Of a stretch of 64,000 nucleotides of DNA, positions 11,942 through 25,755 are shown one piece after another. Where the stretch lies: the NCBI RefSeq assembly GCF_032062105.1, contig NW_026925270.1, positions 186,001 through 250,000 on the forward strand. The letters run 5' to 3'. The stretch comes from Saccostrea cucullata (lineage: Eukaryota). How positions within the stretch are numbered: the stretch's first letter is position 1; every line of letters starts with the position of its first letter. The position numbers and the translations under genes are program-made. The notes under the pieces are model-generated. The model did not search any database and was not told the origin of the DNA. It saw nothing but the letters and a program-made list of their open reading frames with translations.

Positions 11942-14900
11942 CTATGAATCGATCAGCTTGGCCCAGAACTTGAAATCCCTGGGACTGAAGGTGATTCCAA
12001 GGACAGGTGCTGTGGAGGGGGGTAAAGGCCCCTCTTGTAGAAACTCAAACTTTTGGACAATGGAGGCGGTAAACAGGAAGATTTCAAACCTGGCTAAAGA
12101 TTCTCCGAGACAAACCCTTCTTCCTGCAATAGTAATGTGTCTTATTAAGTTAAATATATGAAACATCTTAGTAGAGGTGGCTAAACCCTTTTGAATTCAA
12201 TCAAAACATACTCCCTTACCTATTGAAAATGTCAAAATCTTCAAATTATCATTAAATTTTCCATCTTCTTTGATAAACCTATCGGGGTTAAAATCGTCTG
12301 GATTAGGAAACTTTTCAGGGTCAAAGTTTACAGAATCAATATTAGGCAGCATGGCACATCCTTTGGGTATTCTGTATCCGTTAATGTATGTGTCTTGGGC
12401 TGCTGTGTGGGGAACTCCGAAAGAAGGAATACCAATTCGGAGTACCTCGTTGATGACCGCTAGTGTGTAGGGAAGATTACAGCGGTCGTCCAAAGAGGGC
12501 AAGCGATCTTTGCCGAGGTGATCATGAATTTCTCTGCGGAGTTTGGTTTGGACATCTGGGTAGTTGATGAGGTACGCTATGATCCAGCGTATCACTGTGG
12601 CTGTAGTGTCAGTTCCGGCATTGAACATGTCAGACAGGACGCGAATCAGTTCTTTCTCTGTAAACAACATAAGAATCTATTTTAATCACTGCCATTTTTG
12701 GTCCATATGCATTTTTGTTCATGTCGCAAGAATTCGACCTACCAGCATGACCACTACGGAATGAATTTAATAAATTTGAAAGGGGTACCTTTGTTCATCA
12801 TAATCATATGCTTTGTCTTTTAAATGTACACGGGTAGAGAAGAGGCTCTTAAAATAAAGTATTCATTTTCACTTTATGATCATTAGAGCCCTTACTCTAA
12901 TACTCGTGACCCGTGGGCCATGATTTTCATAACTTTTTAACAAGACCAATTGCTTTTTGCAATCAATCATGCCAAAAATTGATTGCTTGATGTCGAAGAG
13001 AAAAGAATCTTGAAGATTGCATGACTTTGGATGGTTTTATTCTCATCCATCAGATACCAAAATGAAGAGGACATGATATTCACAGTTTTTGTTATTCTTC
13101 ACAAATAGATATGACAAAATTGGTTGAAACTGTTTCAGCGGTTCCGGAAAAAAAGTTGAATATATTCAATTAATGGCGCACGACGACGGACAAAAACAGA
13201 TAGTAGTTAACGTGAGTGAGTCAGGTGACCTAAACAGAAATAAAAATTCTACCGTTGAACACATTGTCACTCTCGTTTCTACGATGATGCATTTCCGTCA
13301 AGTAATAGTCGATGAAGTCGTCCTTTTTCCCTTCAATCCATTTTGATTTATGTTCCATAATTATCTTGCTGTAGAAGGCCTCCAACTTTGCCGTATTCCG
13401 TTTCAACATTTTCAGGCCCATCAAATCTCCTGGAAGGTACCTCAGAAATGGAAAGTACTCAATCAGAGAAATAAGTGCTGCTCCTGTTAAACACTCATTT
13501 AGGAGCTTAACCAATTCCAAAAACGCTGCATCATCATGTCGGAATCTTTCCCCAAATAAAATTGAGCACAGCACGTTCGACACGCTGACGTGGATGAAGG
13601 GCTTTACATCGAATGCTTGTCCGTCCTGCTGTCTGACTGCTTCTAGGAATACTTCCACCTCTTCAAGGATCCGCCCCTCAAGGCTTCGTTTTCCAACTCC
13701 GAAGTCCCGCAGTGTTGCAAGAGCAAATGTCCTCTGTTCCTTCCATGATTTCCCGGAATTTGATAAAATTCCTAAAAGGTATATAAACTTTTAATGTGAT
13801 GCTATAATGTCCGGAAAAAATTGAATATAAATTAATGACAAAAAATAGTAGTTAACGTGATGAGAAGGTTAAACAGAAATAAAAATCTACCGTTGAACAC
13901 ATTGTCACATTGCATTTCCGTCAAGTAACAGTTGAAGGAAAATTGTGTTTATGTTTATTATCTTGCTGTAAAGGCCTCCAACTTTGCCGTATTCCGTTTC
14001 AACATTTTCAGGCCCATCAAATCTCCTTTCAGAAATGGAGTACTCAATCAGCGAAATACATTCCCTTAAATCCATTTAGGGCTTAACCAATTCCAAAAAA
14101 GATCATGGGAATCTTTGAATAAAAGCACAACACGTTGGATAACGTGGATGAAGGGCTTTACATCAAACGCCTTCCAACTGCTGTCTGACTGGAGGAATAC
14201 TTCCACCTCTTCAAGGACATATTTCAAGGCTTCGTCATAACTCCATTTGAAGCAAAATGAGAAGTAAAAGGAACAGGTATATAAACTTTTAATGTGATGC
14301 CATAATGAAAATTGATAAATTGAATGTAGAAAGGATCGTAGATTTAATTAAAAGTAGGAGCAAAACAATTATGGACCTCTAAAACATCAGATGCAGTGGA
14401 CTGAGAAAATTATATTTTTTTATAGTCACCCCAAAAAACTGTTAATGTTATATTTTAAAATGCCACAGCAAGAATTCTCTTCTTTTCGTTTATAAGACTT
14501 TGAATTTTGTCTGCTTCAAATAATTACATGTTTAACGGTGCGCAGTTGGCACCCATCGGAATTCCGACAGATTGTTGGAAGACCTCAGTTGATTTTGTTC
14601 TATGCCCTACCCTCAACCAATCCCAACCCCCGTCCCCAGTCAAAACTCTCAATGATCTGACTTTAAGAATTTTTTTCTCTGAATAAGCGCCTGCATTATT
14701 TCATTTTATTCTTAAACCAGTATTTCAAATTAATTTAGACAATTATTCGATCATATGAAAGAATCAAGCATAGAAAAAATAGAAGTGATTTAATTAAGCA
14801 AACAAGACATAAATCAAATTAATTCTCTAAGTCTTACCCTGGTTACCACCAAATTCTGTGGTTAATATATAATCCGGTCTATCAGAATAAAGATCTCCTT

Positions 14901-15183
14901 TCTTGACAAACACATCCCTTATTGTTTCCTCTCCGTTTATTACAACAGAGTAACTTCTACCTATGTAAAACCCAAAGACATCCCCATACTCTTTCCGAAA
15001 CTCTCGGAATTGTTCAAACATCTTTTGCGGGTTTATGTTAACAACTCCTAGTAAAGGTATTCCTTTGGGACCCGGGGGTAGGTCCTTTGGAATTTGACTG
15101 CGTTTCCATAAAATCAGCAACAGAACGAGTAATAACAGAAAAAGTACGTTGGTGAACGTAAATATTTCACCGAAGAACGACAT
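11942..15183 (-). CDS. Cytochrome P450, CYP2 clan, ~494 aa
   Basis: Exons 15183-14838, 13771-13253, 12657-12220, 12123-11942; all introns are phase-1 GT-AG; 1485 nt. Motifs: N-terminal anchor plus PPGP hinge, WKEQR..LRDFGVGK, I-helix AGTDTT, EVLR, PDRF, heme motif FSIGRRVCLG. Confidence 0.95.
12700..13234 (-). mobile_element. Degenerate Helentron/HINE-like element in CYP intron 2
   Basis: Terminus gagtcaggtgacctaaa (reverse complement of tttaggtcacctga) with the gacgacggac microsatellite and satellite-like internal sequence, matching the element at 37817. The left boundary is approximate. Confidence 0.6.
13845..14310 (-). pseudogene. Degenerate tandem copy of CYP exon 2 and flanks
   Basis: Colinear with 13200-13810 (e.g. 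aaggcctccaactttgccgtattccgtttcaacattttcaggcccatcaaatctcc is identical) but has many short deletions and frameshifts. Confidence 0.7.
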
Positions 15184-17221
15184 TTCTTTTATCTTAATTT
15201 TTTTTGTGTGTTTCCCTATTTATAAATAGTTTCTATGGAACACCTTAAGTCATTTATTTCTACACCTATTTATCTTAACGTCCAAGTATGTTTGGAGGCG
15301 TACATAGTTCAATAATTGCTGTTTGGGGGACAATATAATGATTTAAAAATATATTTTATTAATAGCCGGAGGTAATTTCGAATGGTCCGCTTTACGCTAT
15401 TGGAATATGAATGAAAGTTGGGATAAAGAAACTTGCAAAGGTCTGCTTTGTACAGCATCATTTTGATAAAAAAAAAAGTTGTGTCAGTATTCAAGACAAA
15501 AAAATCCTTTCTTTATGTTTGAGAAATACATGTTTTGGCAATGAAGATAGAAAAAAATATACAAGAGATTAAACACAAAGGTCTGGTTTTGATCTAGAAT
15601 TCCGACATTACATATCTATTTTGACCCTGACCTTTGATCCTGAAGTTCAATATCATTGGATCCTACTAGTATATCAAAGGGCCAAAAAAAATGGGTGAAA
15701 TTGTAACAACCCAACAAAAAGACCCTCTAATCCTTTCAGTTACTTTTAAGAAGGAGGGGGATTTGAGTGGAATTTCGATCCGTTAGTGGTAGGGTGGAGG
15801 GAGGGGTGCTATATTTGTTTCAGCTATGTTTGTATATTTTAGTTATGTTTGAAAGTCTTCTCGACTTCAGGTTGAAGATGGGATTGAATTTTTGCAATAA
15901 TGACGCTCCGTAGTTTCCCATTTTAAGTATGATTGTGTTTTATGTCAATATCTAGTACTACGTTTACACATTCTTGTGTGATCTTCGTCATATTGTAATC
16001 TGACAACGAAGCTTTGAAGATCTAACTTAACCGATTGGTTTCCAAATAAGGATATAAACATAATCAATATTATTTACTTACAAGCGAGGAAATTTGAGGT
16101 GTTTTAGAATGCATTTCTTATTTTGCCCAAATAAGGGCTTGAAAATTAAACAAATTGTTTTTGATATATCCTTTAATGGTTTGTTTTATCCCAATTATCG
16201 GAATGACAGATCATTTTTCAAAAAAAAAAAAAAAAAAAGAAATTCTTCGAGTTGCTGGACTTAAACTTGTAACAGTTATACTGTTATCATATTTTCAACA
16301 GCTATAACTGCTTAAAGAAATCAAAATCGAAAACAAAAATTTGTAGCCTCGTGTTGGAGTATTCGAGCGTACCTTCATGATTAATGTTTAAAACATCAGT
16401 GTTTGTATCTTTTTGGAATTTTTTCAGTCTGAGAATATGCTGCTAAAATTAAACATTAACAGCTCATACAAGTACGTATATGTCTTTCATTTAATCACAA
16501 CAAAAAGACATACATAACCTTCGATTTATTTTCATTTTTTCAATTGTTAAACACTGGGTAAATTTTGATGTTCTTACTAAAATTTCCTTGCATTAAACAT
16601 GTTATGTACGTGTCATTTGTAAAACATGCATTGATATTCCCATTTGCAATTTTAAAGTGAAATATCAAAGAAATTACATAAAATTAAGATTTCAAAAAGT
16701 TTCACTTTATGTTTGTTGCACCCTAGGCATTTTTCCCGCCTTGTTCACCCATCATCTAAATTGAAAAATTTGAGAAAAGAAAAAAAATCCATCATAAATT
16801 AGAAAGAAAAAACACAAATTATAAGTATTATTTGACGAGACGTGTGAAAACTTTCAGATATTTTCTCCACTTTCAAACCGACTGATATAAAGTACATGTG
16901 CGTATATACGAGATACAGTTTAATTTAATTCAATTATCATTTTCAATATAAATAATCAACTGCAAATAATTAGAAAAATGTTGAATCGTACGCGTATTAA
17001 TTATTATGACTTAAAATACGTTTGCGCAGTGCAATAAATGTCTATTCCCGTGGAGTCGACAGTGGTCAAGGCGCGATCAGCTAACACGCTTACAGATTAC
17101 AGTGATATAATATGTTGACATGACCTAGTTCTTTTGAGCTGACCATATCACAACAAAGGAGAGAGAGGGTTAATGACCACTCGTAGTAAAATGACCGCTA
17201 CAACTTGACTGGAAAAACGCA

Positions 17222-18724
17222 ATGTGGAAGGAAATCAACGAACGAAAGTGGTGGCGTATGTGGCCCTACCTTGCGGTGGGGGACACTTTAGTGGGGGTGG
17301 TGGTTCTACCCAACTTTGTGGCCAGTTACTGGATGGGCACGTGGCTGATCTTTGACTTTTACCTCTTTCCCCAGGACATGCACAAGTCAGCCTGGATTTG
17401 CTATGGTGTCGGGAACATCTTAGTGCTGTGCTCCATCCTTTCCCAGGGGATTCTCAGGGCGTGGCTGATTCCCGAAGACGGAAAACGCACGTGGAAATTT
17501 GTACTGTGTGTACACATTTACAAGTACATTATGGCCTTTATCGGGGTCATGCAATGGCGTGGAATTGCCTATATTACCGTCCTATACACAGGAATGTCAC
17601 TGGCTAGCGCTGTTTTAGGTTTGGTGGTTGCCACGATCCTCCTGGCCCTACTCAGAAATCACCTAGGCATCCTAACCCCTCCCCTCACCATGGCCTTAGA
17701 CCCAGGTGTAGAGGAGTCCTTCATAATTCCGACCAAGTTTTCTTGTGAGGTAGGTTTCTGTTTTAGTGAAAGGACTGTTACGGAAGAAAAAATAAAAATT
17801 TTAGCATTCATCGGACTGAGAGAGAGGACAGTTCCCATTGGCAGCTTACTTTAGTCCTTCATGCCGCCAAAGACCTCCGATCGACCTACTGCCTATTTCT
17901 GTTTAGAATCCTCGATAGTTATAATGATTATAAGCCACTAAATGTATCCTGTGAGGATGAGATTCTAGAAACACATACTTTTTAACACGTTTAATGCAAA
18001 GGCAAATGCAAGGCAACTTTGCCTTGCACCAAAATTTTATTAATGTTACACTTTATGCAATATGAATCCAGACTTTGTTTTATATTTTCAGCCTGGACTG
18101 AGTTGGAAGTTCCTCTTGGACGCACTTTTCACCGTTTTTGTGATCACAACTTTTGCTGGGTTTGCCCTCAAAGGATACTGGGTACTTTTGGAGATGGCCA
18201 TGCCAGTAAATGAAGACGACCCCATCGAACTGTTGGATACAGGTTTTGTTTCGTTATTGATATTCTACGGATTAGTTACCATCCCTATCATAGGCCAATA
18301 CGAACTTATGAAATTGAACAAAAAAGTCGAAGAAAAACATCCGTGTCTGGTAGCTACATTGGAGGAACTTTTCATTGCCATTCTTGCTATTCTTCCTATG
18401 TTGTTTTGGCGTGCTGTGTATTTAATTCATTTAAGCTTTTTGACGCCTGAGTATTACACGTTATACCTATGGATTTCCCATGTTGTGGGATTTTTAGGCG
18501 TGTGCGTCATGCGGGCGTCATCAAGCATGATCCCACTGGGATGCGTCTCAGATAAGGAGGCGTTCCAGAGTGAGTTTGGGATTTTTGATTATCGTTATTT
18601 TAGATTTTTTCTGGATAAGAGGAGAACGGTACGCCAACAAGAGAAAGAGGATAAACTTGACTTTACTGAAATTAATACTGAACAAACGATTAGTGATCAC
18701 CAATTAAAGCCTTATTTCACATAG
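17222..18724 (+). CDS. Fuseless-like multipass membrane protein, ~386 aa
   Basis: Exons 17222-17749 and 18092-18724 (phase-0 GT-AG). About 8 hydrophobic segments in two internal repeats with Fuseless-type motifs: D..VGVVVLP.FVASYWMGTW..FD.YLFP, GVMQWRGI, LRN...LTPP...LD, FWRAVY. Confidence 0.8.
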
Positions 18725-18995: not shown

Positions 18996-21900
18996 TCATT
19001 GAATACAATAATAGCTCCCAGTGGTGTTTACACAATGTTGACATGGCTTCGATAAACATTCGTCCAGATCTGCAGAGAAAAAAGTATTTTTCAAGGAACA
19101 TAAAGAATATAGAATAGGTATTGCATGTAGACAGTGATGGTTTGCAGAACTTAACATAAAAAAGTACGAATTTTCATAATTACCCAGTTGACAAATGATT
19201 CCATAATAGCCAGGAGGGCATCTGCATCTGTTGCTATGACAACGACCACCATTAATACAAGGTGGATTACAGGTGGTACCTAAGCGATATTGTAAATCTC
19301 ATTTCTAACTGATAAGAAAAGGCTAGGCAAGGAAAAGAAATAAACTATTATTTCTACACTTAGTGCGTAATGTTTTGAATTTTTACTTTGACAAGTTCTC
19401 TTATCCTTCCGCAGTCGACTTCCGGGAGGACAGGTACAGAAATAAGACCCGTATGTATTACGACATCGGTGTTCACAGGGGTTCGGATACTTGGCACATT
19501 CATTTATATCTGCAGTTAATAAAAGATTTAAGTCAGTTCAAATCCACATAAACAAGAACTCCAACAGAAAACAATGTTGAAGGTCAAAACAAAACAATAA
19601 AGCATAAATTATGTACCGACTCCATCCTTAATAGTTAATATTGGACATAAACATGTTTCAGAGCTAGATTAAATGCTGATACATGTACTTATACATAGTT
19701 ATATTTTTTAACCATCAATGGTTAAAATAATGGCTTAGCATCGCCTCATCCTGGCTTACCTTCTTGACAATAGGTGCCCGAGACGCCACCTGGACACCAA
19801 CATTTCCCATTTCTGCATACTCCACCATTGAGGCAACCAGGAATGCATTGTTCCTCTGTAAATCAATATCAAAGTTTATTTCCGGAACGTACATGTATAT
19901 GTACATTCAATTTTAAACATGTATGACCAAGATTTGAAAAATGTTGTCAAGACCGTACGTCATCATTTTTTGAATACACAAGAAATTATAGTTGTAACAC
20001 CAAGAAATACACTAATACACTAAAAATAGCTGACCAATGCACGTTGTTCTGTCTGGACTTAGGGTGAATCCACTTGGACAGGCACAGTGGAAGCTTCCAA
20101 AGGTGTTCCGACAGGAAAACTGACAAAGATTGGAGGATGTGGCACATTCATCTATATCTGTAATGATTTAAGGAATCCCGTTATGCTTAAAATTATCCCA
20201 TGTTTCCCACTATTGTTGATGCCCTGGCATACTCTCCTAACTAGACAGTGATTCCTTATATTTTCATTTCATTGTGAAATAAAATGGTAGATTTAGACTT
20301 TAAAAATGTAGACATAGACTTAAATTACACGAGGACTTCCATGCCAATTTCAATAGTCCTCGCCCAATGACGTCAAACACCTAGGCAGCCGCACGAGATT
20401 TACATGCACATTTTGCCTCCTTAGCGTCAGACATAGAGACAGATGCGCACGAGATTTGCATGCATTTTAGGCCTCCCAAGGTCCTGACCTATCGACCTGC
20501 CTAAATTTACATTCTGGCAGAATTATCAAGAAGTAAACTCCGACAACTTTCAAAGAGTTATCGCAGAGAAAAAATTAGAAATGGAAATATTTAGTTGTCA
20601 ATAGTCTGAATGCTGATAATGCAGGTGACATTGCACTTAGACCAAATCTAACCATGATTCATTTGCACTGTATGGGGAAAATTATTTTACCGACCATCAT
20701 GACAAACTGGTCCAGAAAGTCCCGGAGGGCAAACGCATTGGCCACCTTCACAGGAGCCCCCGTTAGCACATTCTGGCAAACACTCCATTTCACGAACAGT
20801 TTGTATATCTAAACATCCTTGACCCGGTCCAGGAACCAAGCCTTCCTCACATTTCGAATCTGAACAGTCACCTGTACATAATAAATACTAGTATTACACT
20901 ATTTTAACGATTGCTTTAAAAATTGAAAAACACTTTTTAGTCATACATGGTTCATTTATCAGCATCATACCACCTACCGGAACATGGTCGAACACTCTCT
21001 TCAGACTCTGAAACATTATAAGAGATCTTATAAAGTTTTCAGTATTTACAATATGCAAATAACACTTGTATTGCATTGAAAATACTACGGAAAAATTGTT
21101 CCTTTACCTGTTCCTATAGCTCTACACACTACCTCCCCAGACGAAGCTGTCATAACCTCGTAGCCAGGTCCACAGAGCTCCACATTATCCTCCACACTCA
21201 CGCACCTGCTGTTTCCCCTATCCACTTTTAAAACCTCTCCTGGTCCACACACACTACTGTGATTTGGTATTTCTGTATGAGCATCTTGGCTGCATACGTA
21301 ACCATGCGCAGTCCGAGTCAGAACCAAACCATACTCACAAATCAGATTAGTTTGTTCTTCGGAAACACATTCGATGATACTTGTTTTACCCTGGACCACC
21401 ACTTGTTCGGAATCACAGACGATGCTTTCAATGTCAAGCTTTGTGGGACGACAAATAAATTTGTCTACAACAACAGTAAGGATTTCCCCCTCTGGACATC
21501 GTGTTCTTCGGACATACTCTTCCGTCGACTGTTTGCGTCGGTACTGACACTGGACGCCATTTGTTGTCCTAACCAGACTCTGACCCGGAGGACATGATAC
21601 TTCGTCCGGGGATATCAATGCAGGGTCTTTACACGTGGTACCTCCTACCAACACTTGGCCAGGAGGACATGAAATGTCAGGTTTATTTGATTTTGACACG
21701 AACCAACATTCATCTCCTTCTTCTGTAGACACCAAGGTCTGTCCAGGAGCGCAGTTTCTTCTCGTTTCCTGCTTCTGAGGTGCTGGGATACTTTTTAAAT
21801 CATATTGGCAAATTGTACCCATTGCAGTTTTTATTGGAATAAAACCATCAGGACAAGGGTTTGGTCGACACTCTACTCCATGATCTGTGTGTACCTCCTT

Positions 21901-23346
21901 TTCCATAGGAGAACACCTCGGTTTTGCTTCGGCATTTGGCGAAATGCAATAATAATCTTTCCCTAATTTTACCAGCTCCTGTCCATCTGTACAACTCGGA
22001 CGTCTTGATTTTGCCCGGATGCACACCGGGCCAGTTTGTAAATGGACCAGGCGTTCGCCCGGTTCACACAGAGGTATGCCTTGATGTCTGTTTCCATCAC
22101 TACTTTTTTCACACACAACGCCGATAGTCGTCTGTGTTGGGATTTCACCTTCTGGACAAATGGCGACCATGATTTTGGATGGAGAGTTTACACACTTTCT
22201 TATACCTTTTTGTTCACTTAATGTTTGACCAGGCCCACATTCACTACGACAAATCTCACCCTCTAGTGTTTTAATTAAAACTTCACCATTTTGACATCTT
22301 TGCTGCTCTCTCTTTTCGGTATATTTTCGAAATATAAGTGAATGCTGGTTATTTTGAAAAGGAGTATTGCCTGGTCTCGTCAGATTTCCTTTCTTTACTT
22401 TCTGATTCCCACGATTGAGAAGTCTGTGAGATATTTTCGGTTTGTGTTGAAGATTTTCGTTTGAAAGCTTTATTGGTTTCTTATTCACCTTCAATATCTT
22501 TGATGAGCGAACGCAAACTGTCACATCGTCTGTGACAACTGAATGAAAGCTAGGTGGACACGAATCTGGGGTCGGGATCTCTGCTGAGCCAGATTTAAAT
22601 TTTCGACACATATCCCCTCGGCATCCTTCTGTTTCTAAAGGCAAACTCTCTGATAATTTCATAGGAGCTTTCTGTACTGGTGGATTAGTCGTGAACGTTA
22701 CACCAGATTCTGTTGATTTTATATTGAAAGATTACAATCTTTAAATAATTAGTGCAGTCTTTCTTAAAATAAATATATTTTAATTGTAGAACAAGTCCTG
22801 GTAAAGATTTTATTTTAATTGTAGAACAAGACTTGGTAAAGGTTTACACCTCTTATAAATAATAAGAATAATATAATTTTAAAAATAAAATTTGTAGCCT
22901 CATTTTTTTCGTCCAAAAAAGGGCGGGAGTCTATACATACTTGTCAAGTATATATTATTTTTTTCATAACTGATTTGTAATCTACAGTGATTAATATAAA
23001 TGTTGGTATACTAGCTACTTAAATAAAATTTAAGTTACCTCCCAGGATATTCCTGACAGGTTTACAGGATTGTCCGTCTGTCTGTAATGTGTATCCAGTA
23101 TGACAGAAACATTGAGGTTCGTTGTTTATTACCAGACAGTCATGATCACATCCATGTGATGGGGGACACGTAATGGGGGAACTACCAACATTCCTGTGAA
23201 ATAATCTTCATGGTGAAAAAAATTGGAGATTTAAGTTAGAGAGAAAAATATATGTAAGCAAACAATGATACTTACAAATTCAATGAATCAGCCAAATGAA
23301 TCATTAGCGAGAATAATAAATTGTTTATCAACAAACTGCATGTCAT
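18996..23346 (-). CDS. Secreted cysteine-rich protein: signal peptide, EGF, basic linker, ~15 CxxG-x11-C loop repeats, three (EGF + cbEGF) pairs with the last cbEGF truncated; ~838 aa
   Basis: Exons 23346-23276 (MTCSLLINNLLFSLMIHLADSLN), 23193-23039 (EGF), 22709-21108, 20871-20695, 20157-20035 (DIDEC..CRNTFGSFHC), 19855-19760, 19509-19387 (DINEC..), 19279-19184, 19069-18996 (DLDEC..YYCIQ*). All GT-AG and phase-consistent; 2517 nt. Confidence 0.88.
20270..20531. repeat. Dispersed ~260-bp repeat (inverted copy at 28951-29210)
   Basis: Near-identical reverse complement of 28951-29210 (e.g. ccttagcgtcagaca.agagacagatgcgcacgaga). Confidence 0.85.
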
Positions 23347-25086: not shown

Positions 25087-25755
25087 CAGGTCCAGTACAA
25101 TCACTAGATTCAGCTATTTAGGTAGATTTACCTTGTAGCTTGATTTACCTACCTCAGGTAGCTTTATTTAGCTATTTCAATGCAACTTTTCAAAATTTTT
25201 CTTTTTATTTAAAAGAGAAAAAAAATCGCAAGTATATGACTATTAATGTTTATACTAGTGAGGTTTTAAAAAACAATCCAAAGCAGGGATAGTTTATACA
25301 TTTACTGCATTTGGACAATTTAGAGCAAAACATGTAATTCCATTGTTTGGGTAAATGTCCCCTCTCTTGCGTGCGGTGATCGAGGCATCACTGAGTATGA
25401 TTACTTTTTATTGTGCTGAATAATTACTAATCTATTATTAAGTTAACCAGAACTGGACTTCTTTGTCATTTCATTCAAGGAGTAACTGTTTTAACTGTCA
25501 TACATAGCCCCAAAACTTCCAGAACTTTCATTGCGCAGAAAAAGACATTTCTTCAAGAGGGATTTTTTCATGAATTGTTTTCCGATGAGTAGGTAAGTTA
25601 AAAATGATCACTGCATCAAAATGAGATTTTCTGCACATCCTGAGAAAAATGCTTTTTTATAGAAATAAATTGATTTGGTAGCTAAATAAAGCTACCTCAG
25701 GTACGTAAATAAAGCTAGTAGGTAAATCAAGCTAAATAGCTAAATAAAAGACCTG
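25087..25755. mobile_element. Degenerate MITE with CAGGTC...GACCTG ends and subterminal inverted repeats
   Basis: aggtagctttatttagcta versus tagctaaataaagctacct. The terminus caggtccagtacaa resembles the 53474 element. Confidence 0.55.

What the first reader, a model, noticed from the sequence alone, without database searches (positions are those of the whole stretch)
21108..22310. Secreted protein with an array of ~15 two-cysteine loop repeats (CxxG-x11-C) in one 1.6-kb exon
Seen: units such as CQNGEVLIKTLEGEIC, CGPGQTLSEQKGIRKC, CPEGEIPTQTTIGVVC, CEPGERLVHLQTGPVC, CTDGQELVKLGKDYYC, CPDGFIPIKTAMGTIC, CAPGQTLVSTEEGDEC, CPPGQSLVRTTNGVQC, CEYGLVLTRTAHGYVC and CGPGEVLKVDRGNSRC, separated by variable linkers. 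They sit between an N-terminal EGF and a run of EGF/cbEGF domains, and the protein has a signal peptide and no TM. Established: the C5-C6 loop of cbEGF/cEGF domains has the form C.PGY.L..DG..C. Inference: each unit may be an isolated, amplified EGF C-terminal beta-hairpin acting as a stand-alone disulfide module. I do not recognise this repeat family. It is a candidate mollusc-specific matrix, adhesive or shell protein.
Basis: partly seen in the sequence, partly recalled or inferred. Interest (0 to 1): 0.7.

Follow-up and report, generated by a model that had tools for sequence, protein, structure and literature searches.

The report
Mollusc matrix protein with hairpin-repeat rod
An oyster gene, with counterparts in clams, scallops and snails, encodes a likely secreted protein in which sixteen short two-cysteine repeats of no catalogued family, each predicted to fold as a small stapled hairpin, likely form a flexible spacer between ordinary EGF modules of a tissue-matrix protein.

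Summary
A 1,602-nt exon (21108-22709, minus strand) holds 16 two-cysteine units, 15 of them in the finding's span; 13 of 16 are C-x14-C. The 10-exon gene encodes exactly XP_062606748.1 (Saccostrea cucullata, 848 aa), and all 9 introns are spliced in RNA of a close relative. The array reaches no Pfam cut-off, and 12 accessions are cited in no searched paper. Only one copy was found in this genome, with named homologues in 5 oysters, 3 scallops, Solemya, Mercenaria, abalone, Babylonia and Elysia. The last nine units keep their positions across bivalves and gastropods. AlphaFold2 models each unit as a beta-hairpin; units 12-14 look ordered together (pLDDT about 90), so not all are stand-alone. 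Solemya and scallop members start with a fibrillin/VWCE-type FUN-EGF module that the oyster proteins lack. Best reading: a fibrillin/VWCE-like extracellular-matrix linker with a disulfide-stapled spacer. Origin from the EGF C5-C6 loop is plausible but unproven, since a probably bacterial fibre repeat fits the unit better. An adhesive or shell role has no specific support.

The parts
23276..23346 (-). Exon 1: start codon and likely signal peptide (aa 1-24)
   Evidence: transcript contigs of a relative reach 23483 and 23518
23039..23193 (-). Exon 2: N-terminal EGF-like domain
   Evidence: joint 22709/23039
21108..22709 (-). Exon 3 (1,602 nt, phase 1-1): linker, CRGDMC loop, unit 1, basic linker, 15-unit array
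   Evidence: spanned by single contigs in runs X8 and X14
22606..22623 (-). C-x4-C loop, CRGDMC here; family pattern CR(G/D)D(L/M)C
   Evidence: present in 13 of 21 sequences examined, RGD in 4 of the 13
22513..22560 (-).
   Evidence: conserved in the alignments
22297..22512 (-). Cysteine-free basic linker (aa 142-213; 19 K/R, 3 D/E in 72 aa)
21124..22296 (-). Array of 15 two-cysteine units (units 2-16, aa 214-604), each predicted as a beta-hairpin
21292..21498 (-). Units 12-14 (aa 480-548), predicted to be ordered together with their linkers
   Evidence: pLDDT 89-93 over model residues 131-190
20978..21007 (-). Exon 4, 30-nt mini-exon
   Evidence: seen as inserted letters in the 20872/21108 joint
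20695..20871 (-). Exon 5: short cysteine linker with one unit-like C-x11-C loop, then EGF
20035..20157 (-). Exon 6: calcium-binding EGF
19760..19855 (-). Exon 7: EGF
19387..19509 (-). Exon 8: calcium-binding EGF
19184..19279 (-). Exon 9: EGF
18996..19069 (-). Exon 10: truncated cbEGF (C1-C4 only, no C5-C6 loop) and stop
   Evidence: joint 19069/19184; same truncation in the other four oyster species

Best explanation
The 15 units in the span, plus one upstream, are real repeats of a gene conserved across bivalves and snails, and each is predicted to fold as a small beta-hairpin likely closed by its own disulfide, so that the array likely acts as a semi-flexible, protease-resistant spacer in a likely secreted extracellular-matrix linker protein. 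Shown: gene structure, splicing in a close relative, unit pattern, homologues, domain order. Predicted: hairpins, weak overall packing (pTM 0.37), local order of units 12-14. Inferred: Cys1-Cys2 pairing within each unit; secretion; binding at both ends. The C-terminal (EGF-cbEGF)x3 block would be calcium-stiffened and bind other matrix proteins. The N-terminal part (FUN-EGF-EGF-cbEGF in Solemya and scallops, one EGF in oysters), the basic linker and the CR(G/D)DxC loop would bind glycosaminoglycan, matrix or cell surface. It would work like the fibrillin/LTBP/VWCE group, with the hairpin string in the place of TB or VWC domains.
For: Window translation equals P0053/XP_062606748.1 through ten GT-AG exons; 9 of 9 introns are spliced in a relative about 94% identical. 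One match in the own genome (3 candidates scored, query units 11-16). A profile search of 1.84 billion representatives gave 23 hits; all that carry a species name are molluscs. Indels between the five oyster orthologues fall mostly in the linkers, while unit spacing is nearly fixed; 291 of 361 detected units in 25 family sequences are x14. Both Cys of units 8-16 are kept in 71 of 72 comparisons with 8 named non-oyster molluscs. The tree of these units recovers oysters (100/99) and pectinids (99/99) as clades. With 28 sequences AlphaFold2 gives one two-strand hairpin per unit, mean pLDDT 76. The Solemya N-terminus matches fibrillin-1 FUN-EGF1 (2M74, E 1.8e-10), a pair described for fibrillin, LTBP-1L/2 and VWCE (PMC3794157, passages). 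pN/pS about 0.27 on 21 listed differences to the relative (a partial list of 101).
Against: No tissue, localisation or binding data were obtained; reads in three oligo-dT runs are sparse (0-3.6 per bin over exon 3) and their tissue is not given. Disulfide pairing was not measured, and the model coordinates could not be inspected. The oyster protein itself has no FUN domain, so the fibrillin-like reading rests on homologues. RGD is in only 4 of 13 loops, so integrin binding cannot be a family trait. The signal peptide is weak. Same-position identity across molluscs (0.32) is only modestly above identity between units of the window protein (0.24), and alignment inflates the first figure. Deep branches of the tree are weak (55/67).
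Confidence: 0.55

Rival explanations
1. Origin: the unit is the C5-C6 loop of a neighbouring cbEGF, duplicated inside one exon and lengthened by two residues. This is compatible with the best explanation of function.
For: The 48 cbEGF-type x12 loops of the same proteins share P at +1, G at +3 (96%), L at +6 (90%) and a late G, and score 8.3 bits on the unit profile against -7.5 when shuffled. Exon 3 is phase 1-1 like the EGF exons. The last cbEGF of all five oysters ends after C4, so the loop is separable in this gene. Foldseek's best rows are EGF arrays, but only as local matches with TM under 0.2.
Against: Spacing is 14, not 12. Position +4 is Q/E in 53% of units and 2% of EGF loops; the D/N before the late Gly (100% of loops) is not kept. 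23 distinct units of two probably bacterial proteins score 13.3 bits, equal to held-out mollusc units (13.0), so a 16-residue motif of this kind can arise without EGF ancestry. Caveat: those two proteins were picked by the mollusc profile itself.
Confidence: 0.4
2. The protein is a specialised adhesive, byssus, cement or shell component, and the array is a load-bearing, cross-linkable element like the repeats of scallop Sbp5-2.
For: Sbp5-2 has 14 Cys-Xn-Cys repeats with 8.4% Cys and 12.4% Asp+Glu (PMC9117251, passages); the array has 7.6% and 13.2%. EGF repeats are common in marine adhesives (PMC12817120, PMC6337334, passages; PMC10336842, abstract).
Against: Homologues occur in cementing oysters, scallops, burrowing clams, abalone, a whelk and a sea slug (life habits recalled). 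The array has 2% Tyr and 3% aromatic residues and is near neutral (43 K/R, 52 D/E), unlike DOPA adhesives or acidic shell proteins. None of 4 Sbp5-2 construct starts has Gly three residues after its Cys, against 81% of units. The EGF passages of the pediveliger candidate paper describe other architectures (gene IDs could not be cross-mapped).
Confidence: 0.15
3. The array is the shaft of a homo-oligomeric, probably trimeric, fibre, built on the same principle as the two-cysteine repeats of S74-chaperone fibre proteins of bacteria and phages.
For: P0064 (unnamed record, Peptidase_S74 E 3.5e-15) carries about 30 units with the same x14 spacing and T-x-x-G turn; it was found at E 2.4e-15; profile alignment probability 99% (inflated by repetition). 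S74-bearing fibres are trimers (PMC10769870, passages).
Against: The mollusc proteins have no S74, coiled-coil or collagen family match that could register three chains. Linkers are long and variable (3-18 aa). The monomer model already orders units 12-14. The passages read do not describe the cysteine repeats of such fibres.
Confidence: 0.1
4. The units are isolated chitin- or glycan-binding hairpins of the CBM14 type and the array is a multivalent lectin.
For: Atlas feature search lists clusters with CBM_14 at 0.80-0.82, lead level only. An aromatic residue follows the second Cys at +2 in 33 of 182 units.
Against: No CBM_14 match in 12 members scanned to E 10. Only 3% of the array is aromatic, too little for repeated sugar-stacking sites.
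Confidence: 0.05

Closest known systems
FUN-EGF extracellular-matrix proteins: fibrillin-1, LTBP-1L/2, VWCE/URG11 (PMC3794157)
   Same: Secreted mosaic of EGF and cbEGF; Solemya and scallop members begin with FUN-EGF1 (2M74, E 1.8e-10) followed by EGF and cbEGF; a furin-type RTRR precedes it in Mizuhopecten.
   Different: No TB, hybrid or VWC domain in 20 proteins scanned; the middle is a string of two-cysteine units; oyster members have no FUN; only about seven EGF-type domains.
cbEGF C5-C6 loop (Pfam cEGF PF12662)
   Same: CPxG start, Leu at +6, late Gly, predicted two-strand hairpin between two cysteines.
   Different: 14 instead of 12 residues between the cysteines, Q/E instead of aromatic or Ser at +4, T-x-x-G instead of D-G turn, no preceding C-x-C; no cEGF match in the window's array.
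Two-cysteine repeats of S74-chaperone fibre proteins (P0064; Bdellovibrio MAT fibres as the studied group, PMC10769870)
   Same: Unit of the same length and consensus, CxxG(E/Q)xLxxTxxGxxC.
   Different: Probably prokaryotic or phage, ends in an S74 chaperone, near-identical tandem copies; the mollusc units are diverged and position-specific and lie among EGF exons.
Scallop byssal protein Sbp5-2 (PMC9117251)
   Same: About 14 semi-regular Cys-Xn-Cys repeats, similar Cys and acidic content, beta structure.
   Different: No EGF flanks described in the passages read; 0 of 4 construct starts show CxxG; abundant thread protein. Its full sequence was in a figure and could not be compared.
Apicomplexan oocyst wall proteins / DUF5874 / EB clusters
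   Same: Nearest Atlas clusters by features (0.78-0.83): extracellular strings of short cysteine units.
   Different: Score is at lead level; no DUF5874 or EB match in 12 members at E up to 10.

Membership tests
EGF-like domain (for the array units) | Six cysteines per 35-45 residues with C-x-C between C4 and C5 | tested here: not met
   Two Cys per unit of about 26 aa; no C-x-C in exon 3; no EGF family hit
cEGF / cbEGF C5-C6 loop (PF12662) | C-x12-C with G at +3, L at +6 and D/N before the late turn | tested here: not met
   13 of 16 units are x14; D/N not kept; 1 of 12 members hits cEGF, at E 4.5
cEGF / cbEGF C5-C6 loop (PF12662) | Two-strand hairpin closed by a disulfide between the two cysteines | tested here: inconclusive
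   Hairpin predicted for every unit; the bond itself not measured
Calcium-binding EGF (for exons 6, 8, 10) | D-[IL]-[DN]-E-C and N-T-x-G-S-[YF] consensus, EGF_CA above cut-off | tested here: met
   EGF_CA 62.3 bits, 3 stretches; consensus read; the third lacks C5-C6
FUN-EGF proteins (fibrillin, LTBP, VWCE) | N-terminal FUN-EGF1 pair in the window's protein | tested here: not met
   No CCxGW motif and no Fibrillin_U_N or EGF_FBN_1st hit in P0053
FUN-EGF proteins (fibrillin, LTBP, VWCE) | N-terminal FUN-EGF1 pair in homologues | tested here: met
   3 of 14 sequences by motif (Solemya, Mizuhopecten, Argopecten); Solemya matches 2M74 at E 1.8e-10; one Babylonia isoform hits PF18193 below cut-off
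Fibrillin / LTBP | TB (8-Cys) or hybrid domains | tested here: not met
   No TB hit at E up to 0.01 in 20 proteins
VWCE | VWC repeats after the EGF block | tested here: not met
   No VWC hit at E up to 0.01 in 20 proteins
Fibropellin or Notch (the database names) | CUB and avidin domains (fibropellin); LNR, transmembrane and ankyrin parts (Notch); definitions recalled | tested here: not met
   Only EGF-clan hits in P0053; no transmembrane stretch
CBM14 chitin-binding domain | Six-cysteine domain with exposed aromatics, Pfam CBM_14 | tested here: not met
   No hit in 12 members to E 10; 3% aromatic
Oocyst wall protein / DUF5874 / EB | Pfam DUF5874 or EB match | tested here: not met
   No hit in 12 members to E 10; Atlas feature scores 0.78-0.83 only
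Sbp5-2 tandem repeat motif | Sequence homology of the repeat | tested here: inconclusive
   Only four primer-encoded starts were available; 0 of 4 have Gly at Cys+3
S74-chaperone fibre proteins | C-x14-C shaft unit | tested here: met
   13.3 bits against 13.0 for held-out mollusc units
S74-chaperone fibre proteins | C-terminal S74 chaperone | tested here: not met
   PF13884 only in P0064, 1 of 20 scanned
S74-chaperone fibre proteins | Homotrimeric assembly | not testable with these tools
   Needs SEC-MALS or electron microscopy
Any solved fold | Whole-array structural match | tested here: inconclusive
   Beads-on-a-string model (pTM 0.37) is a poor query

The most novel reading that the evidence does not exclude
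The true module is not the single hairpin but an undescribed fold of two or three disulfide-stapled hairpins (units 12-14 here; strict A/B alternation over about 30 units in P0056). Molluscs would have built it before the bivalve-gastropod split by amplifying one EGF sub-domain inside an exon, converging on the shaft repeat of bacterial and phage fibres, and would use it as a fibre-forming, extensible element of a mollusc-wide microfibril-type matrix that has gone unnoticed under 'fibropellin-like' and 'Notch-like' labels.
Probability: 0.15. Interest if true: 0.7.

Novelty: new variant of a known kind. Interest (0 to 1): 0.4.

Why it matters
It defines an unnamed gene family found across bivalves and gastropods whose members are labelled fibropellin-, Notch-, fibrillin- or VWCE-like on their EGF domains alone. 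It adds a repeat type missing from Pfam and gives a clean test of whether an EGF sub-domain can become a repeat in its own right in animals. If the array proves load-bearing, it is a small, non-collagen, DOPA-free design for disulfide-stapled protein fibres. The overall kind, an EGF-rich matrix protein with a cysteine-stapled spacer, is familiar, and no function was shown, so the interest is moderate.

Tried and rejected
Homotrimer prediction of units 8-16: no verdict; score 0.00 in two runs, the alignment was not used and the chain's own fold was uncertain; it says nothing for or against binding. Fold searches: VIA-align over 48,161 chains gave one row (Z 2.6, rmsd 3.4, 42 residues, Plasmodium MSP-1 EGF); Foldseek gave no match with TM of 0.2 or more by query; this absence does not show a new fold. 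PDB sequence search with the oyster profile: 1 chance hit, E 1.2; with P0064: designed repeat proteins and an S74 tail fibre, nothing on the cysteine units. First model from 7 sequences was weak (pLDDT 52.5). Atlas searches by feature (best 0.83 and 0.80) and by structure (TM under 0.3) gave leads only. Word-indexed homologue searches missed most distant members (1 hit, 13). Recent tandem duplication rejected: no DNA repeat in the exon beyond 16-19-nt pairs. Frame or annotation artefact rejected by splicing and orthologues. Horizontal transfer from bacteria considered unlikely: intron-flanked exon and a tree that follows host groups; not tested formally. Short 490-560-aa forms without EGF tail (P0003, P0005, P0006, P0011) most likely are exon 3 read from unspliced DNA, not isoforms (inference; not tested). 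Paper searches for 12 accessions found 0 papers; searches listed no paper on this family. Of 24 runs listed, 8 were laid; the others are no evidence. Earlier-findings look-ups by sequence, place and one word set found nothing.
Full report
Observation. The minus-strand frame 21085-22731 contains all ten quoted units. Pairing the 32 cysteines of this exon in order gives 16 units, 15 at 21124-22296 and one at 22513-22560; 13 of 16 are C-x14-C, with linkers of 3-18 residues. The pattern CxxG-x(6-11)-C occurs 11 times in residues 215-606, against a mean of 0.48 and a maximum of 6 in 100,000 shuffles. No DNA tandem repeat lies in the exon, and units share only 24% identity on average (78 pairs), so the array is old.

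Gene. A ten-exon GT-AG model from 23346 to 18996 translates exactly to P0053, XP_062606748.1 of Saccostrea cucullata, 848 aa, labelled fibropellin-1-like. Exon 3 is 1,602 nt with phase-1 introns on both sides. All 9 introns appear as spliced joints in runs of a close relative (101 other letters over exon 3 in run X8); 8 of the 24 listed runs were laid. Raw reads of three oligo-dT runs are sparse over exon 3 (0-3.6 per bin) and the tissue is not given. Of 21 listed differences in exon 3, 11 are synonymous (pN/pS about 0.27; a partial list). Order of parts: moderately hydrophobic N-terminus, EGF, CRGDMC loop, unit 1, 72-residue basic linker, 15 units, short cysteine linker, then EGF-cbEGF three times; no transmembrane stretch. 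The last cbEGF stops after C4 in all five oyster species. A search of the own genome with units 11-16 found one match, this locus.

Family. Orthologues at 45-72% identity over the exon come from S. echinata, Ostrea edulis, Magallana gigas and Crassostrea virginica. A profile of seven oyster sequences against 1.84 billion representatives gave 23 hits. Those with species names are Solemya velum, Mizuhopecten, Argopecten, Pecten, Mercenaria, Haliotis rubra, Babylonia and Elysia; the rest are unnamed, so the range outside molluscs is not established. Across 25 family sequences 291 of 361 units found by a simple detector are x14, with consensus C-P-x-G-(Q/E)-x-(L/P)-V-x-T-x-x-G-x-x-C; detected unit numbers run from about 13-19 in full-length members to 54 in P0056. 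Units 8-16 align position by position: both cysteines are kept in 71 of 72 comparisons with 8 named non-oyster molluscs, at 0.32 mean identity. Their tree (22 of the 28 aligned rows; P0003, P0006, P0007, P0054, P0073 and P0083 left out as near-duplicates or fragments) recovers oysters and pectinids with full support but has weak deep branches. Solemya, Mizuhopecten and Argopecten members begin with a FUN-EGF pair (3 of 14 by motif; 2M74 at E 1.8e-10), a pair reported for fibrillin, LTBP-1L/2 and VWCE (PMC3794157, passages). The CR(G/D)D(L/M)C-type loop is in 13 of 21 sequences, with RGD in 4 and RDD in 5.

Structure. The array reaches no Pfam cut-off: best rows in the window are E 0.017-0.44. 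AlphaFold2 on units 8-16 with 28 sequences gives one two-strand hairpin per unit, mean pLDDT 76.3, pTM 0.37. Most linkers are at pLDDT 44-75, but units 12-14 and their two linkers are at 89-93. P0056 alternates two unit types (identity 0.49 at distance two, 0.21 at distance one; 29 units), and the Elysia protein repeats a three-unit block almost exactly (possibly an assembly artefact). So neighbouring hairpins probably pack in places. Pairing within units is inferred from fixed unit length with indels mostly in linkers (one M. gigas unit is x12) and from gain and loss of cysteines in pairs in the alignment; it was not measured.

Origin. The 48 cbEGF-type x12 loops of the same proteins score 8.3 bits on the unit profile (shuffled -7.5), sharing CPxG, Leu at +6 and a late Gly. 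They differ in length, at +4 (Q/E 2% against 53%) and in the turn. Two unnamed, probably prokaryotic hits, P0064 with an S74 chaperone and P0071, carry units scoring 13.3 bits, equal to held-out mollusc units (13.0); they were selected by the same profile, which favours them. Earlier unchecked notes of this scan also report two-cysteine hairpin arrays in bacteria. A 16-residue motif cannot decide between descent from EGF and convergence; I put EGF origin at 0.4.

How it likely works. A secreted, calcium-binding matrix linker: binding modules at both ends, held apart by a string of small disulfide-stapled hairpins that resists proteolysis and allows bending at the linkers. The end-binding roles follow by analogy from fibrillin N-C and heparan-sulfate interactions (PMC3794157, passages) and are untested here. 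A specialised adhesive or shell role is less likely: the array has 2% Tyr, 3% aromatics and near-neutral charge, and the gene is kept in molluscs of very different habits. Other papers seen: PMC10769870, PMC3374290, PMC6337334 (passages), PMC10336842 (abstract); none describes this family in what was read.

Verdict. Real, conserved and apparently undescribed as a family (12 accessions, 0 papers; supplements of expression studies not searched). It is a new variant of a known kind, EGF-rich matrix proteins with a cysteine-stapled spacer. Interest 0.4.

Noticed in passing
window 20190-20580 (intron 5): High-copy interspersed repeat: depth in the hundreds to tens of thousands in the relative's runs, with an internal 51-nt direct repeat at 20390 and 20446; probably a small non-autonomous transposon.
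   Followed up: partly
window 18996-19069: The last cbEGF lacks its C5-C6 loop in all five oyster species but is complete in Solemya, scallops, Mercenaria and gastropods; Ostrea keeps a cysteine-free remnant.
   Followed up: partly
window 17195-18724 (+): Two-part Fuseless gene (PF15993), tail to tail with the studied gene, the stop codons about 270 nt apart.
   Followed up: partly
window 26086 onward (+): Glycosyl hydrolase family 35 (beta-galactosidase-like) gene, head to head with the studied gene.
   Followed up: partly
window 14827-15219 (-): First exon of a cytochrome P450.
   Followed up: partly
window 25087-25745: A second stretch with high depth in the relative's runs, probably another interspersed repeat.
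   Followed up: no
P0056 (unnamed record), residues about 790-1860: Family member with about 54 units, of which some 30 alternate strictly between two types with conserved linkers; a good target for defining the two-hairpin module.
   Followed up: partly
P0064 (unnamed record): 1,501-aa S74-chaperone fibre-like protein with about 30 C-x14-C units in near-identical tandem copies, matching no Pfam repeat family.
   Followed up: partly
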